A stretch of 32,000 bases of DNA, taken from an unidentified eubacterium SCB49 (GTDB taxonomy: Bacteria; Bacteroidota; Bacteroidia; Flavobacteriales; Flavobacteriaceae). Of the stretch, positions 1,974-6,449 are shown one piece after another. The position numbers and the translations under genes are program-made. The stretch is from contig ABCO01000010.1 of NCBI GenBank assembly GCA_000170815.1, positions 81,652 through 113,651 of the forward strand, given 5' to 3'. The notes beneath the pieces were generated by a model. The model was given only the letters and a program-made list of their open reading frames with translations. It searched no databases and was not told where the DNA came from. The first letter of the stretch is position 1, and each line of letters opens with the position of its first letter.

Positions 1974-1994
1974 GACTCACGACTCACGACTCAT
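1974..1994. repeat. Heptad tandem repeat, 3 units (GACTCAC GACTCAC GACTCAT)
   Basis: Read directly. It overlaps the stop codon of the 1991-2557 gene and is the reverse complement of the GTGAGTR heptads at 2578-2654. Confidence 0.75.
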
Positions 1995-2557
1995 TGCTTT
2001 TCTCCAATCTTCTCAATTATTTTTTCGGCTCTGTTTTTATAGCCTGCGGTTCCAGAAGGTAATTTCTGCTCTAAAATCACTTTTAGTTCTGGGTGAATCC
2101 AGTCTATTTCTGTGCCTATTAAATACAAACAGGTCATAGCGCGTGCGGTACAAGCTACTTTTTTGTCTTCTATAATCCAGTCAAAACAGGCCTCGGTAAG
2201 TATTTCTTTATGGGCTGCGGTTAATGGTGGTTTGCTGTATTTTTTAGAGGTTTTGTAATACGCTAGGCATAATTTCTCAGCAATATTAGCAAGCGGTCGT
2301 ACCGTTTGTTCTTTCTTCGGAAACGTGATGCGTTCAAAAAATAGGTCTAAATGATTATGGAGTAGGCTAGGGTTTTCAATTACCACAAACTCGAGTACCC
2401 AAGCCGCCTTATGAGTTATTTCCTCTTGAGTTTCTAAATACACATAATCAATTAGTTCTGGAATGGTCTCGGGATGTTCTATTACCCAATGTGCAGCAGC
2501 AAGCCTGTTTGCTCGGTAGGCTTTTGCGTAGTTTATTTGGGCTAGGAGGGTGGACAT
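1991..2557 (-). CDS. Hypothetical protein, probably all-helical (ARM/HEAT-like repeat fold suspected)
   Basis: 188-aa ORF with normal composition. I recognise no catalytic motif. Helix-rich periodic hydrophobic pattern (e.g. AAWVLEFVVIENPSLLHNHLDLFFERI). It is bracketed by heptad tracts. Confidence 0.65.
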   Translation of the reverse strand: MSTLLAQINYAKAYRANRLAAAHWVIEHPETIPELIDYVYLETQEEITHKAAWVLEFVVIENPSLLHNHLDLFFERITFPKKEQTVRPLANIAEKLCLAYYKTSKKYSKPPLTAAHKEILTEACFDWIIEDKKVACTARAMTCLYLIGTEIDWIHPELKVILEQKLPSGTAGYKNRAEKIIEKIGEKQ

Positions 2558-2577
2558 GTTATAAAGATAAGGAGAAA

Positions 2578-2654
2578 GTTGTGAGTGGTTAGTAGTGAGT
2601 AGTGAGTTTTTAGTATTGAGTAGTTAGTATTGAGTGGTTAGTATTGAGTAATAC
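2578..2654. repeat. Degenerate heptad tandem repeat, 11 units (GTRRTKA: GTTGTGA GTGGTTA GTAGTGA GTAGTGA GTTTTTA GTATTGA GTAGTTA GTATTGA GTGGTTA GTATTGA GTAATAC)
   Basis: Read directly. The + strand has no C over 2578-2653, so the stretch is G-free in the sense of the minus-strand gene whose ATG lies 21 nt away at 2557. Confidence 0.85.
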
Positions 2655-2683
2655 GTATTAAATTCATAAATGAATTTCTCATT

Positions 2684-3508
2684 TTGTATTTTAACTAAAA
2701 CAGCAGCCTCTTGTCAGTCTGAGCGCAGTCGAAGACAATATTCTTCGCTATTTTAAAATTGTGGAGAGTTTCTTTCCTTTAACAATTTGGGCTTCACTAT
2801 GCATTTCGACTGCGCTCAATGTGACAAAAATTATTTTTTTTATTTCAACTAAAGCAGCAGCCCCTTGTCAGTCTGAGCGCAGTCGAAGACAATTTTATTC
2901 GCTATTTTAAAATAGTGGAGAATTACTTTCCTTTAACAATTTGGGCTTCACTATGCATTTCGACTGCGCTCAATGTGACAAAATTTAAAAGTTTGTTATT
3001 CAAGTAAAGCAGCAGCCCTTGTCAGTCTGAGCGCAGTCGAAGACAATTTTATTTGCTATTTTAAAATTGTGGAGAATTCCTTTCCTTTAACAATTTGGGC
3101 TTCTATACGCATTTCGACTGCGCTCAATGTGACAAAATTTAAAAGTTTGTTATTCAAGTAAAGCAGCAGCCCTTGTCAGTCTGAGCGCAGTCGAAGACAA
3201 TTTTCTTCGCTATTTTAAAATTGTGGAGAGTTTCTTTCCTTTAACAATTTAGGCTTCACTATGCATTTCGACTGCGCTCAATGTGACAAAAGTTAAAAGT
3301 TTGTATTTCAACTAAAGCCAAAGCATCTTGTCAGTCTGAGCGCAGTCGAAGACAATATTCTTCGCTATTTTAAAATTGTGGAGAGTTTCTTTCCTTTAAC
3401 AATTTAGGCTTCACTATGCATTTCGACTGCGCTCAATATGACAAAATTTAAAAGTTTATAATTCAACTAAACCCGAAGCCCTTTGTCAGTCTGAGCGCAG
3501 TCGAAGAC
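2684..3508. repeat. Array A: 5.3 tandem copies of a 154-155-bp palindromic (long-hairpin) unit
   Basis: The left arm GTCAGTCTGAGCGCAGTCGAAGAC starts at 2713, 2867, 3021, 3175, 3330 and 3485. The inverted partner TTTCGACTGCGCTCAATGTGAC starts at 2804, 2958, 3112, 3266 and 3421. The loop is 67 nt and the linker 41 nt. There is no ORF of 60 aa or more on either strand. Confidence 0.95.
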
Positions 3509-3527
3509 AATCATGTAGCAGAGAGCA

Positions 3528-4202
3528 TTAGTTGTTAATCATTTCAACCACCTTCAAAACTCCTGTACTTGCTTTTTCTGCTACTACGGTTAGTTTGCTA
3601 TTAGAAGACAAAGAGGGCTTAGGATCTACAAAATAAAGAGAAGCATGTTGGGGAGCGTATTGCATTAATCCAGCTGCAGGATATACTTGCATAGAGGTAC
3701 CTACAATAATAACGACATCAGCTTTTTCTACAATAGAGATTGCCTTGTCTAGTGCAGGAACTTCTTCGCCAAACCAAACAATATGCGGACGCCATTGATG
3801 TCCTTTTTCACATAAGTCGCCCACTTGTATGTCTTTGTCCCAATATTTAATGTCTTTACTGTTTCCGGAGCTACGTATTTTAAGGAGTTCGCCGTGAAGG
3901 TGTAGTACATTTTTACTTCCTGCCCGTTCGTGAAGATCATCTACGTTTTGAGTAATCACATACACATTGTGTTGTTCTTGCAATTGAGCTAGGGCTAAGT
4001 GTGCAGCATTCGGTTTTACTTCTAGTAACTGCCTACGGCGCTGGTTATAAAAATCTAAAACTAATGCTGGGTTTTTAGCAAAACCTTCTGGAGTGGCAAC
4101 CTCCATCACGTCGTGACCTTCCCATAAGCCATTAGCATCTCTAAAAGTTTTAATGCCGCTTTCTGCAGAGATACCAGCGCCTGTTAATATTGTGATGTTC
4201 AT
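3528..4202 (-). CDS. cobB: NAD-dependent protein deacylase, class III sirtuin (CobB/Sir2 family)
   Basis: 224 aa with GAGISAESGIKTFRD (NAD-binding), QNVDDLHERAG, catalytic HLHG, VWFGE and GTSMQVYPAA. It aligns colinearly by eye with E. coli CobB. A Y-x-x-R pair (FYNQRRR) is typical of class III deacylases. Confidence 0.92.
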   Translation of the reverse strand: MNITILTGAGISAESGIKTFRDANGLWEGHDVMEVATPEGFAKNPALVLDFYNQRRRQLLEVKPNAAHLALAQLQEQHNVYVITQNVDDLHERAGSKNVLHLHGELLKIRSSGNSKDIKYWDKDIQVGDLCEKGHQWRPHIVWFGEEVPALDKAISIVEKADVVIIVGTSMQVYPAAGLMQYAPQHASLYFVDPKPSLSSNSKLTVVAEKASTGVLKVVEMINN

Positions 4203-4274
4203 TTTTGTTTTGATTTTAATCGTTGGCTCTAAACCGTTAGTATTGTGTTTTATTCTGTGAGTAAAAATAGTGAT

Positions 4275-4918
4275 AAAGGTAACATTGCTGATTATTAAAA
4301 TAAAGTAGCTAATCTATATTCCATACTCCATATTCTATTTTCCAAAAATTAAGAGCTGTAATTTTCTTATTCTTCACAGTCATGTTGAGCCTGTCGAAGC
4401 ACAACAAACAGCAAGTAATTTTAATCCGTTAAGTATTGCCCTTCGACAAGCTCAGGGTGACTGTATCATTAATTAAGATAAAGTAACTTGTCTATACTCT
4501 ATATTCCATACTCCATATTCTATTTTCCAAAAATGAAGAGCTATAATTTATTTATTCTTCACAGTCATGCTGAGCCTGTCGAAGCACAACAAATAGCAAG
4601 TAATTTTAATCCGTTAAGTATTACCCTTCGACAAGCTCAGGGTGACTGTATCATTAATTAAGATAAAGTAACTTGTCTATACTCTATATTCCATACTCCA
4701 TATTCTATTTTCCAAAAAATAAGAGCTGTAATTTATTTATTCTTCACAGTCATGCTGAGCCTGTCGAAGCACAACAAACAGCAAGTAATTTTAATCAGTT
4801 AAGCATTGCCCTTCGACAAGCTCAGGGTGACATGCTGATTATTTGAGTAAAGCAAATCGTCTATATTCCATACTCTATTCTCCATATTCTATTTTCCAAT
4901 CGACAAGCTCAGGGTGAC
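4275..4918. repeat. Array B: 3 full plus partial copies of a 185-bp palindromic unit (second arm family)
   Basis: The left arm GTCATG(C/T)TGAGCCTGTCGAAGCAC starts at 4379, 4564 and 4749. The inverted partner (G/A)CCCTTCGACAAGCTCAGGGTGAC starts at 4438, 4623 and 4808. The loop is 35 nt. A truncated extra right arm lies at 4900-4918 and a degenerate remnant at 4278-4283. The roughly 50-nt flank at 4278-4327 is repeated at 4913-4962. Confidence 0.93.
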
Positions 4919-4947
4919 ATTGCTGATTATTAAAATAAAGTAGCTAG

Positions 4948-5010
4948 TCTATATTCCATACTCTATTCTCCATATTCCAAATACCTTACTCCACTCTTCA
5001 TTTTCTGTTT
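4948..5010. repeat. Degenerate heptad tract, about 9 units (TCTATAT TCCATAC TCTATTC TCCATAT TCCAAAT ACCTTAC TCCACTC TTCATTT TCTGTTT)
   Basis: Read directly. The + strand has no G over 4948-5006. The same heptads (TCTATAT TCCATAC TCCATAT TCTATTT TCCAAAA) occur in every array B unit, e.g. 4313-4347. Confidence 0.8.
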
Positions 5011-5771: not shown

Positions 5772-5820
5772 ATGTAAAAAGTAAAATTCAAAATGTAAAA
5801 GTTAAGTAGAAAGTGTAAAA
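5772..5820. repeat. Degenerate heptad tract, 7 units (ATGTAAA AAGTAAA ATTCAAA ATGTAAA AGTTAAG TAGAAAG TGTAAAA)
   Basis: Read directly. It starts at the first base after the trmH stop codon and ends 5 nt before the next ATG. The + strand has a single C (5789). Confidence 0.75.
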
Positions 5821-5825
5821 ACCTT

Positions 5826-6356
5826 ATGAAGTTAGTCATCTTTTTATGTATTCCTTTTGCTGTGTTATCACAGCAATCACCAAGGTATTTGGGGTTTATG
5901 AAGACTATAAGTCCTGTAGATTCTTCCAAGGTTATTAAAAAGTACAAGAACGGTCAGCTACGAGAAGCGGGTAAAGAGTATGTCTTTGAAACGGAAGATT
6001 ATTTATACACTTCTCTTGTTGGTGAAAACTTGAGTTATTTTAAGTCTGGAGCTTTGTCTAGAAAAACAATTTTTGATGATTTGGGTATTCAACTTTCAGA
6101 TATCTATTATGATGAAGATGGTCAGATACTTCAAGAGAACTTGACTCAAAAACTTGATACTTCTGTAAAAACTGCTGAAGAATTTTTTGATGATACAAAC
6201 TTTGATATAACAACATATGCTAAGTTTTATTCGTTTTCTGTAAAGTTTTGTAGGTATTACCTAAAGAAAGAAGGGGCTTGTTTTAATTATAAAAAAACGG
6301 GAGTTTGGAAAATATACAATCCAGATGGTTCACTCAAAAAAGAAAAATCATACTAA
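5826..6356 (+). CDS. Hypothetical secreted protein (possible MORN-variant/YwqK-like repeats)
   Basis: 176 aa with an N-terminal signal-like segment MKLVIFLCIPFAVLSQ. The motifs YKNGQLREAGKEY and GVWKIYNPDGSLKKE resemble MORN-variant repeats. It is bracketed by heptad tracts. Confidence 0.65.
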   Translation: MKLVIFLCIPFAVLSQQSPRYLGFMKTISPVDSSKVIKKYKNGQLREAGKEYVFETEDYLYTSLVGENLSYFKSGALSRKTIFDDLGIQLSDIYYDEDGQILQENLTQKLDTSVKTAEEFFDDTNFDITTYAKFYSFSVKFCRYYLKKEGACFNYKKTGVWKIYNPDGSLKKEKSY

Positions 6357-6358
6357 AA

Positions 6359-6449
6359 ACTCAATACTCACTACTCACTACTCACTACTCACCACTCACC
6401 ACTAACCACTCACTACTAATCACTCACCACTAACCACTCAATACTAATT
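6359..6449. repeat. Degenerate heptad tandem repeat, 13 units (ACTCAAT ACTCACT x3 ACTCACC x2 ACTAACC ACTCACT ACTAATC ACTCACC ACTAACC ACTCAAT ACTAATT)
   Basis: The register was verified base by base. It is 91 nt with no G on the + strand and fills the whole spacer between the upstream stop (6354-6356) and the rdgB ATG (6452). Confidence 0.9.

What the first reader, a model, noticed from the sequence alone, without database searches (positions are those of the whole stretch)
2684..3508. Array A: 5.3 tandem copies of a 154-155-bp long-hairpin unit with invariant arms, filling the ~970-bp spacer downstream of cobB
Read directly from the sequence. The 24-nt arm GTCAGTCTGAGCGCAGTCGAAGAC starts at 2713, 2867, 3021, 3175, 3330 and 3485 (spacings 154, 154, 154, 155, 155). 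Its inverted partner TTTCGACTGCGCTCAATGTGAC starts at 2804, 2958, 3112, 3266 and 3421. Each left/right pair can form a GTCA:TGAC stem (4 bp), a 3-nt mismatch bubble, and a perfect GC-rich 14-bp duplex TGAGCGCAGTCGAA:TTCGACTGCGCTCA around a 67-nt loop. Each right arm can alternatively pair with the NEXT left arm across the 41-nt linker, so the array has two mutually exclusive folding registers. The arms are identical in all copies, apart from one G>A in the fifth right arm. The loop and linker carry several substitutions per copy (e.g. AATATTCTTCGC / AATTTTATTCGC / AATTTTATTTGC). That pattern suggests constraint or gene conversion acting on the arms. There is no ORF of 60 aa or more on either strand. 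Most spacers in this window are under 170 bp, so a 970-bp structured, non-coding, non-CRISPR array is unusual. Candidate roles, all inferred, are a REP/BIME-like element cluster, a stack of transcription terminators or mRNA-stabilising hairpins for cobB, or tandem structured RNAs.
Basis: partly seen in the sequence, partly recalled or inferred. Interest (0 to 1): 0.72.

Follow-up and report, generated by a model that had tools for sequence, protein, structure and literature searches.

The report
Cluster of nuclease-linked hairpin repeats
The 154-bp array is a locally amplified cluster of a tiny hairpin repeat that is scattered through Bacteroidota genomes and brackets the genes of small GIY-YIG nucleases, so it is a variant of the recently described Ssn nuclease/repeat system and not a new RNA or CRISPR-like array.

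Summary
Array A spans 2683-3511 with period 154-155 and 5.4 copies. It has six left and five right arms at the stated coordinates, and the arms vary far less than the spacers (1/51 vs 27/104 columns, p=1e-4).

The proposed anatomy needs revision. Each arm is a separate copy of a ~26-nt oriented motif, (T)GTCA-N3-TGAGC-N2-3-GTCGAA-N3'.

The exact 24-mer occurs in at least 115 stretches across many Bacteroidota genera. It appears as solos, inverted dimers, other alternating arrays, and in-frame inserts in genes.

Motif copies in inverted orientation tightly bracket a ~104-aa single-domain GIY-YIG nuclease gene. This held in 10 motif-selected loci, 3 of 3 genome/metagenome checks, and 29 of 80 protein-selected metagenome loci. 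That is the architecture of the Ssn ssDNA nuclease and its SRM/NTS repeats (Chenal 2025). However, the published SRM pattern matches 0 of 410 copies.

Relatives with 81-85% identical CobB lack array A, so it is a lineage-specific amplification. No RNA family, Y1 transposase signature or ssn gene was found in the window.

Verdict: a BIME/NIME-like cluster, a new variant of a known kind.

The parts
2683..3511 (.). Array A: 5.4 tandem units of 154-155 bp. Each unit is a left motif, a 64-67-nt tail-to-tail spacer, a right motif and a 37-41-nt head-to-head linker.
   Evidence: TRF; sequence; unit alignment
2712..2736 (+). Motif copy L1, TGTCA-GTC-TGAGC-GCA-GTCGAA-GAC (tag T plus the 24-mer)
2801..2826 (-). 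Motif copy R1, TGTCA-CAT-TGAGC-GCA-GTCGAA-ATG-C read on the minus strand
2866..2890 (+). Motif copy L2
2955..2980 (-). Motif copy R2
3020..3044 (+). Motif copy L3
3109..3134 (-). Motif copy R3
3174..3198 (+). Motif copy L4
3263..3288 (-). Motif copy R4
3329..3353 (+). Motif copy L5
3418..3443 (-). Motif copy R5. Its stem is TAT/ATG, which is a T.G wobble on the motif strand, and it is the only arm substitution.
3484..3508 (+). Motif copy L6, the terminal half unit, 19 nt from the cobB stop codon
2737..2800 (-). Tail-to-tail spacer of unit 1; the same spacer recurs in units 2-5. The ~40 nt next to the left arm align weakly with the 3' end of ssn-like genes, so it is a possible remnant of an internally deleted nuclease cassette.
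   Evidence: nhmmer: left-arm hits score 27-30 bits and reach into the spacer, against 23.6 bits for the terminal arm alone. Suggestive only.
3528..4202 (-). cobB (Sir2-family deacylase), bracketed by arrays A and B
   Evidence: Pfam SIR2; 100% identical to the protein of 'unidentified eubacterium SCB49'
4313..4977 (.). Array B: 3.2 units of 185 bp plus a partial 88-bp repeat, carrying the same motif with a 2-nt spacer. Plus-strand copies GTCATGCTGAGCCTGTCGAAGCA start at 4379, 4564 and 4749. Minus-strand copies GTCACCCTGAGCTTGTCGAAGGG lie at 4442-4461, 4627-4646 and 4812-4831. A truncated copy lies at 4899-4918.
24247..24318 (.). Single head-to-head dimer: an intact copy at 24250-24269 (minus strand) and a decayed partner GTCAGGCTGAGCTTTTCGTAA at 24298-24318 (plus strand), between an ABC transporter gene and a phosphoglucomutase gene
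1991..2557 (-). Conserved 188-aa ORF of unknown function downstream of array A. It is the syntenic neighbour of cobB in relatives.

Best explanation
Array A is a locally amplified, BIME/NIME-like cluster of a dispersed REP-type hairpin element.

The element. It is a ~26-nt oriented motif, (T)GTCA-N3-TGAGC-N2-3-GTCGAA-N3'. On its tag strand it can fold into a short hairpin. The outer 3-5 bp covary. I infer an invariant inner part made of U:A, tandem G.A/A.G and G:C pairs, closing a 5-6-nt loop.

The partner protein. In Bacteroidota, and in at least one Sphingomonas plasmid, two inverted copies of the motif bracket the gene of a ~104-aa single-domain GIY-YIG nuclease. This is the architecture of the Ssn site-specific ssDNA nucleases and their Ssn-related motifs (NTS/dRS3 in Neisseria). 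I therefore infer that the motif is the cognate single-stranded-DNA recognition site of such a nuclease. That nuclease, or recombination at nuclease-cut or hairpin-stalled ssDNA, would spread and maintain the copies.

The array unit. The 154-bp unit is one tail-to-tail dimer plus a head-to-head linker. The dimer is possibly an internally deleted nuclease cassette. The unit was multiplied about five-fold in the SCB49 lineage, by unequal recombination or replication slippage between the identical arms. The arms stay identical through selection for recognition and/or gene conversion, while the spacers drift.

Shown: the anatomy, the dispersal, the stem covariation, the strand asymmetry, the nuclease-gene association, and the lineage-specific amplification.

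Inferred: binding and cleavage by the nuclease, the inner non-Watson-Crick pairs, the amplification mechanism, and any effect on cobB. That effect might be ssDNA 'restriction' of incoming DNA, as for the NTS-gene-NTS arrangement in Neisseria.
For: Dispersal. The degenerate motif hits at least 120 viral-contig stretches. The base before GTCA is T in 129 of 133 copies.

Stem covariation. Copies were chosen only by their invariant parts. All three stem pairs form in 153 of 223. On 103 distinct copies, 131 compensatory cells are seen against 42 in shuffles (0/500), and the covariation score is 0.439 against 0.123 or less than 0.15 for slid partners.

Strand asymmetry. There are 37 G.T against 3 A.C on the motif strand. 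This fits a single-strand, one-orientation ligand, as reported for SsnA.

Nuclease association. The GIY-YIG gene (Pfam PF01541, E 3e-18) has a plus-strand motif upstream and a minus-strand motif downstream in 8 motif-selected loci, with partial cases in 2 more. The same holds in G. forsetii, A. ruestringensis and a metagenome contig chosen by protein. It holds on both sides in 29 of 80 protein-selected metagenome loci and on one side in 12 more. The spacer type (2 nt or 3 nt) partly follows the protein clade. A Sphingomonas plasmid homologue (48% identity) has the core GGC-TGAGC-GAA-GTCGAA-GCC upstream.

Known system. Ssn/NTS properties and the IS-like NTS-ssnA-NTS layout are described in PMC11893778.

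Lineage specificity. Three syntenic relatives lack array A. Two carry a single decayed dimer where array B sits. One carries a single-copy homologue of the array-A unit at another locus.

Arm constraint. Similar alternating arrays elsewhere.
Against: No ssn-like gene lies in the 32-kb window, and I could not examine the rest of the SCB49 genome.

Membership of the Bacteroidota protein in the Ssn family proper (CDD cd10448) was not testable. Its nearest solved structures are UPF0213 proteins and Slx1.

The published SRM search pattern matches none of 410 copies.

39 of the 80 protein-selected loci show no strict motif. Three more distant plasmid homologues show none either.

The local hairpins of the array-A arms are thermodynamically weak under standard parameters (-0.9 to -2.3 kcal/mol, no better than shuffles).

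The 2:1 co-orientation of solo copies with neighbouring genes would also fit an RNA-level role.

Cleavage, mobility and any phenotype are untested.
Confidence: 0.75

Rival explanations
1. A classical REP/BIME cluster mobilised by a Y1 HUH transposase (RAYT), as the first reader proposed checking.
For: The alternating-orientation arrangement with two linker classes resembles E. coli BIME-2, and inverted dimers resemble REPINs (general knowledge). A Bacteroidetes-specific RAYT subclass 2.6 exists (PMC6006769).
Against: The tag is TGTC, not GT[AG]G. The REPs listed for subclass 2.6 (for example GCTAGCGCGAGCGTCCCGCTCGTG) are unrelated, and that paper's REP table holds no TGAGC...GTCGAA-type sequence apart from two Pseudomonas GTAG REPs. 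No HUH...Y signature was found in six-frame translations of the window or of any fetched locus. A different nuclease gene is the one bracketed by the motif.
Confidence: 0.05
2. The array works mainly at the RNA level, as a stack of terminators or 3'-stabilising hairpins for cobB, or as tandem structured RNAs.
For: Both strands fold far better than shuffles as RNA (z -9.5 and -9.3). The array starts 19 nt after the cobB stop. Solo copies are co-oriented with the upstream gene about 2:1 (72 against 36). G.U-compatible changes on the motif strand would also fit RNA.
Against: No Rfam family matches, even at E 10. The motif alternates strand, so only half the copies could be read on any one transcript. 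Array B lies in a divergent promoter region, not a 3' UTR. The terminator-like sites lie only on the strand antisense to cobB. Relatives with the same gene order lack the array. Copies also sit inside coding genes and flank a nuclease gene on both sides.
Confidence: 0.1
3. A neutral local tandem duplication with no trans-acting partner. The arms look conserved only because they are the youngest or most converted parts.
For: The array is absent in relatives. Units differ by 4-12%. Assemblies break at it: a 935-bp Logan contig ends inside the repeats.
Against: The identical 24-mer recurs in at least 115 stretches of unrelated genera. Its stems covary. It brackets a nuclease gene. Arms against spacers differ at p = 1e-4. 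Local amplification is part of the best explanation, but it does not account for the motif itself.
Confidence: 0.08
4. An assembly artefact: collapsed or expanded repeats.
For: Short-read assemblies break here.
Against: The units carry distinct substitutions in an ordered pattern, with units 2 and 3 the most alike and units 4 and 5 alike. This is not expected from artefactual concatenation. Similar arrays occur in independent assemblies.
Confidence: 0.02

Closest known systems
Ssn nucleases and their Ssn-related motifs (SRM; NTS, the oriented dRS3, in Neisseria), Chenal et al. 2025, PMC11893778
   Same: An oriented hairpin repeat with a 5' xGTCA tag. Hundreds of dispersed, mostly intergenic copies that cluster around genes. 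Inverted copies bracket the gene of a ~100-aa single-domain GIY-YIG protein. A strand-specific signature fits ssDNA recognition. The motif-gene-motif layout is IS-like.
   Different: The core is TGAGC-N2-3-GTCGAA, with only 3-5 Watson-Crick pairs and an inferred tandem G.A, not an 8-bp perfect palindrome. The published degenerate SRM pattern matches 0 of 410 copies. The hosts are Bacteroidota, which the paper's text does not mention. The protein carries a conserved C-terminal ECRNxTHxKY tail. Its assignment to cd10448 and its enzymatic activity are untested.
CGTC-tagged REPs (Di Nocera et al. 2013, PMC3733652), including Neisseria dRS3 (CGTC-1) and Rickettsia RPE-4/-6
   Same: A terminal CGTC/TGTC tag, small size, dimers in inverted orientation, in-frame intragenic copies, and no associated transposase. 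Flavobacterial G. forsetii is listed as a host.
   Different: Those families are described with 8-9-bp complementary stems starting A-T/T-A, 4-5-nt loops and a CCA tail, and 'clusters rare'. Here the inner stem is non-Watson-Crick, the tail differs, and clusters occur. That paper's figures were not available, so I could not check whether its G. forsetii family is this motif.
E. coli BIMEs and Pseudomonas REPINs with RAYT
   Same: Alternating-orientation REP copies with two linker classes repeated in tandem. Inverted dimers form long hairpins. There is a single-copy, apparently vertically inherited nuclease partner flanked by the repeats.
   Different: The tag (GTAG) and the enzyme class (Y1 HUH transposase) are different.
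Neisseria intergenic mosaic elements (NIMEs)
   Same: Intergenic mosaics in which 50-150-bp units are separated by dRS3/NTS copies, flanking particular genes.
   Different: NIME units are heterogeneous repeat families. Array A is a homogeneous tandem amplification of one unit.
MITEs (internally deleted IS derivatives)
   Same: The tail-to-tail dimer has the two terminal repeats of the nuclease cassette with most of the gene missing.
   Different: No target-site duplication was seen. Homology of the spacer to the gene's 3' end is weak. GIY-YIG proteins are not known transposases.

Membership tests
Ssn-related motif (SRM/NTS) repeats | Oriented unpaired 5' tag (HGTCW) in front of a hairpin-forming repeat of 20-50 nt | tested here: met
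   TGTCA in all 11 array-A copies. T precedes GTCA in 129 of 133 copies. The stem is supported by covariation.
Ssn-related motif (SRM/NTS) repeats | Copies flank, on both sides, the gene of a small single-domain GIY-YIG protein | tested here: met
   10 motif-selected loci, 3 of 3 protein-selected genome or metagenome loci, and 29 of 80 metagenome loci on both sides. This is not shown for the SCB49 genome itself, and there is no such gene in the window.
Ssn-related motif (SRM/NTS) repeats | Fits the published degenerate search pattern HGTCWYN(0-2)YYVSBRHN(0-5)WNVSBRGN(0-2)RNCYNB | tested here: not met
   0 of 410 copies and 0 hits in the window. NTS and NTSvar controls match.
Ssn-related motif (SRM/NTS) repeats | Bound and cut only as single-stranded DNA, on one strand only | tested here: inconclusive
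   37 G.T against 3 A.C mismatches on the tag strand fit a single-strand ligand of fixed polarity.
Ssn nuclease family (CDD cd10448) | The partner protein belongs to cd10448 / is a BLAST homologue of N. meningitidis SsnA | not testable with these tools
   No CDD library or SsnA sequence was available. Pfam gives GIY-YIG only and NCBIfam gives nothing. The nearest structures are UPF0213 BH0048/EF2693, then Slx1.
CGTC-tagged REPs | Terminal CGTC (or TGTC/CCTC) tag not involved in pairing | tested here: met
   TGTC
CGTC-tagged REPs | 8-9-bp complementary stem beginning A-T, T-A, with a 4-5-nt loop | tested here: not met
   Only N3/N3' covary. The A:T closing pair is present in 45 of 103 copies. 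The inner positions UGAG/CGAA cannot form four Watson-Crick pairs.
CGTC-tagged REPs | No transposase gene flanked by the repeats | tested here: met
   No Y1 signature in any locus. A GIY-YIG nuclease gene is flanked instead.
GTAG REP / BIME with RAYT | 5' GT[AG]G tag and a RAYT gene flanked by the REPs | tested here: not met
   The tag is TGTC, and there is no HUH/Y motif in the window or the fetched loci. The regex test covers the fetched sequence only.
GTAG REP / BIME with RAYT | Clusters of REPs in alternating orientation with regular linkers | tested here: met
   Six plus-strand and five minus-strand copies alternate, with 67-nt and 41-nt intervals.
CRISPR array | Direct repeats in one orientation separated by unique spacers | tested here: not met
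   The repeats alternate orientation, and the 'spacers' are themselves repeated at 88-96% identity.
Curated structured RNA families (Rfam 15) | Match at or above a family's gathering score | tested here: not met
   0 matches at gathering score. In array A only chance-level hits at E 0.6 or higher.

The most novel reading that the evidence does not exclude
The TGAGC-N2-3-GTCGAA hairpin and its bracketed ~104-aa GIY-YIG proteins form a distinct, cross-phylum branch of Ssn-like ssDNA nuclease/repeat pairs. The branch spans Bacteroidota and at least some Alphaproteobacteria. It has its own recognition logic, namely a tandem-G.A core with a free-to-vary outer stem, and the published SRM definition misses it. 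Its amplified clusters on both sides of cobB would act as ssDNA cleavage 'fences' that limit recombination of incoming DNA at that gene.
Probability: 0.4. Interest if true: 0.6.

Novelty: new variant of a known kind. Interest (0 to 1): 0.5.

Why it matters
It changes what the array is taken to be. A puzzling 'structured non-coding array' becomes a recognisable genome parasite or domesticated repeat system.

It also extends the one-year-old Ssn/SRM picture in three ways. It adds a phylum and a motif class that the published search pattern does not detect. It gives a covariation-backed model of what is recognised: an invariant core and a free outer stem. It shows that these motifs can be amplified into tandem arrays and inserted in frame into housekeeping genes.

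If the nucleases cut this motif as ssDNA, they would add new specificities to a family proposed as ssDNA tools.

For annotation, the motif explains many spurious 'VSLSAVE/LSLSKG/FDKLR'-type peptides and many assembly breaks in Bacteroidota genomes. The link to those peptides rests partly on my own recollection.

Tried and rejected
- Rfam at gathering score and at E up to 10 gave nothing relevant.
- A hammerhead-like reading of CUGA...GAA was rejected by inspection, because the G8/A9 positions are missing.
- tRNA-derived, attC, dif and CRISPR readings were rejected on motif order, consensus or orientation.
- A full-text search for six exact 16-mers of the motif returned no paper.
- A RAYT/Y1 regex over six-frame translations of all loci returned no hit. 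The REP table for RAYT subclass 2.6 holds unrelated sequences.
- tblastn of the GIY-YIG protein against the window gave only noise.
- The source contig could not be recovered. Only a 935-bp Logan contig was found, and none of the 115 genome loci is the source. The organism was instead named through the CobB protein.
- More distant GIY-YIG homologues on Rhizobium and Legionella plasmids show no flanking motif. A Methylobacterium homologue shows only a related inverted repeat with an inner hairpin.
- The AlphaFold model and Foldseek search confirmed the GIY-YIG fold but found no solved Ssn structure to compare with.
- Promoter-like hits inside the array are sigma-70 consensus matches created by the motif itself. 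I did not take them as evidence.

Full report
1. Observation

The array is real and is as described. TRF finds 5.4 copies of a 154-bp unit at 2683-3511, with 92% matches and no indels. The left arm occurs six times on the plus strand and its partner five times on the minus strand, at the stated positions. That is 11 matches where shuffles give 0.04. Both folding registers exist. The arms are much less variable than the rest of the unit: 1 of 51 columns against 27 of 104 (p = 1e-4). No ORF of 60 aa or more lies in the 970-nt gap, which is the largest in the window. The gene upstream on the minus strand is a Sir2/CobB deacylase. Its protein is 100% identical to one from 'unidentified eubacterium SCB49', a marine flavobacterium.

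2. The arms are independent motif copies

A second array lies on the other side of cobB (array B, 4313-4977, period 185). It carries arms with the same fixed letters but one base fewer in the middle, and a lone dimer sits at 24247-24318.

I searched the degenerate pattern GTCA-N3-TGAGC-N2-3-GTCGAA in viral contigs. In genuine copies, the three bases after GTCA pair with the three bases after GTCGAA: CCC/GGG, TGC/GCA, CAC/GTG and so on. In array A the left arm reads GTC...GAC and the right arm, on its own strand, CAT...ATG.

Copies were chosen only by their invariant letters. All three pairs form in 153 of 223. On 103 distinct copies, compensatory changes occupy 131 cells against 42 in shuffles (0/500). 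The covariation score is 0.439, against 0.123 for shuffles and at most 0.148 for slid partners. Mismatches are strongly asymmetric, with 37 G.T against 3 A.C on the motif strand. The hairpin therefore matters on one strand as a single strand.

The invariant middle can be drawn as U:A, G.A, A.G, G:C closing a 5-6-nt loop. That part is my inference, because invariant positions cannot covary.

3. The motif is dispersed

The hosts include Dyadobacter, Pedobacter and many Flavobacteriaceae genera. The copies take several forms.

- Many are solos.
- Many are inverted dimers, including a ~110-bp composite repeated in Flavivirga.
- Some are alternating tandem arrays, for example period 109 x 4.3 in L161.
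- Some are in-frame inserts in coding genes. One HisA carries CQSERSRRP and a HemN-like protein carries VSLSAVED. HisA relatives at 84-87% identity lack the 10-residue insert, while others carry it in other frames or with a nested copy.

4. The array is lineage-specific

Three relatives with 81-85% identical CobB keep the gene order SpoU | cobB > 187-aa ORF > ABC transporter. None has array A. Their cobB-downstream gaps are 413, 208 and 664 nt. One holds a single solo copy right after the stop codon. At the array-B position, two relatives carry one decayed dimer and one carries nothing. One relative has a single-copy homologue of the array-A unit at another locus, with both arms and a partly conserved ~77-nt spacer. 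The arrays are thus recent tandem amplifications of a single dimer.

5. The partner protein

Among the motif-selected loci, a ~104-aa ORF recurs. It is tightly bracketed by a plus-strand copy upstream and a minus-strand copy downstream. It is a GIY-YIG domain protein (Pfam E 3e-18). Two of the copies are frameshifted or carry a stop codon.

Starting instead from the protein, the same bracket is seen in G. forsetii, A. ruestringensis and a metagenome contig. Of 80 metagenome loci, 29 have the motif on both sides and 12 on one side. The 39 without it are mostly the most divergent. The 2-nt and 3-nt spacer variants partly follow protein clades. A Sphingomonas plasmid homologue (48% identity) has the same core, with a GTTCA tag.

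No Y1 transposase signature was found anywhere. No such GIY-YIG gene lies in the window.

6. Comparison with what is known

Di Nocera et al. (PMC3733652) defined CGTC/TGTC-tagged REPs. These lack a transposase, form inverted dimers, occur inside genes, and include Neisseria dRS3 and some Rickettsia RPEs.

Chenal et al. 2025 (PMC11893778) showed that N. meningitidis SsnA is a 94-aa single-domain GIY-YIG protein. It binds and cuts the oriented dRS3 (NTS) only as ssDNA and on one strand only. ssn genes are flanked by such motifs in 42% of homologues, and the NTS-gene-NTS arrangement lowers transformation. The authors noted the IS-like layout and the REP/BIME analogy.

The present motif has the same tag and the same gene association, and it shows a single-strand signature consistent with one. 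It fails the published degenerate SRM pattern in 0 of 410 cases, while NTS controls pass. Its core is not a Watson-Crick palindrome. I could not test whether the protein falls in cd10448. The nearest solved structures are UPF0213 proteins and Slx1.

7. Mechanism for array A

The unit, read on the minus strand, is an upstream arm, a spacer whose last ~40 nt weakly resemble the 3' end of ssn-like genes, a downstream arm and a linker. The spacer resemblance adds about 6 bits over the arm alone and is suggestive only. The simplest reading is a gene-less cassette (MITE-like dimer) multiplied by unequal exchange between identical arms. The arms would then be kept identical by selection for recognition or by conversion.

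Rival RNA-level roles are not excluded, but they lack support. Rfam finds no family. The copies alternate strand. The terminator-like sites lie only antisense to cobB. The array is absent in relatives.

8. Verdict

Array A is a BIME/NIME-like cluster of an Ssn-type repeat, a new variant of a known kind. It is of moderate interest, because it extends a very recent system to a motif class and a phylum that the published definition does not capture.

Noticed in passing
window 4313-4977: Array B: 3.2 copies of a 185-bp unit plus a partial 88-bp repeat, in the divergent cobB/SpoU-methylase intergenic region. It carries the same motif with a 2-nt spacer, so cobB is bracketed by about 19 motif copies. 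Relatives hold a single decayed dimer there.
   Followed up: partly
window 24247-24318: A lone head-to-head dimer of the motif, with one intact and one decayed copy, between an ABC-transporter gene and a phosphoglucomutase gene.
   Followed up: partly
window 2577-2659 (minus-strand sense) and 6366-6447 (plus strand): G-free heptad arrays about 80 nt long (ACTCACT / ACTAACC ...) end a few bases before the start codons of the 188-aa ORF and of the Ham1 gene. The two tracts are reverse complements of each other on the chromosome. Relatives carry other G-poor heptamer arrays at the same positions: CACTTTT, CTTCCAT/CTTCTTT, and GATTGTG with its complement.
   Followed up: no
L127 678-701, L126 2938-2961, L133 3552-3575 and alignment A4: The motif sits in frame inside housekeeping genes of other genera: HisA, a HemN-like radical-SAM protein, and a likely MetH. 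In HisA the insert is present, absent, in another reading frame or nested in different lineages. One HisA cluster (P0320, 366 aa) is fused to a GIY-YIG domain.
   Followed up: partly
L242 2960-3344 (G. forsetii), L244: The bracketed GIY-YIG gene lies just downstream of ruvB in G. forsetii and a few genes from ruvB in A. ruestringensis. This suggests a vertically inherited, single-copy 'master' locus, as for RAYTs.
   Followed up: no
L240 about 5810-5840; L331 flanks of 401-641: Nested or extended variants. In these, a second small hairpin replaces the short loop between the TGAG... and ...TCGAA halves: TGTCACCC[GGTCCCGAAGTGTCGGGA]GTCGAAGGC in L240, and CATCCTGAGG[...]CCTCGAAGGAG flanking a GIY-YIG gene in Methylobacterium.
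   Followed up: no
window 4297-4838: Array-B units give sub-threshold Rfam hits to RF02901 (AaHKsRNA41, 24-28 bits against a gathering score of 97) on both strands. That sRNA family may itself contain a repeat of this kind.
   Followed up: no
L001 (Logan SRR9433258 contig, equal to window 3408-4342): An independent short-read assembly holds cobB on a 935-bp contig that ends inside arrays A and B. The repeats therefore break assemblies.
   Followed up: yes
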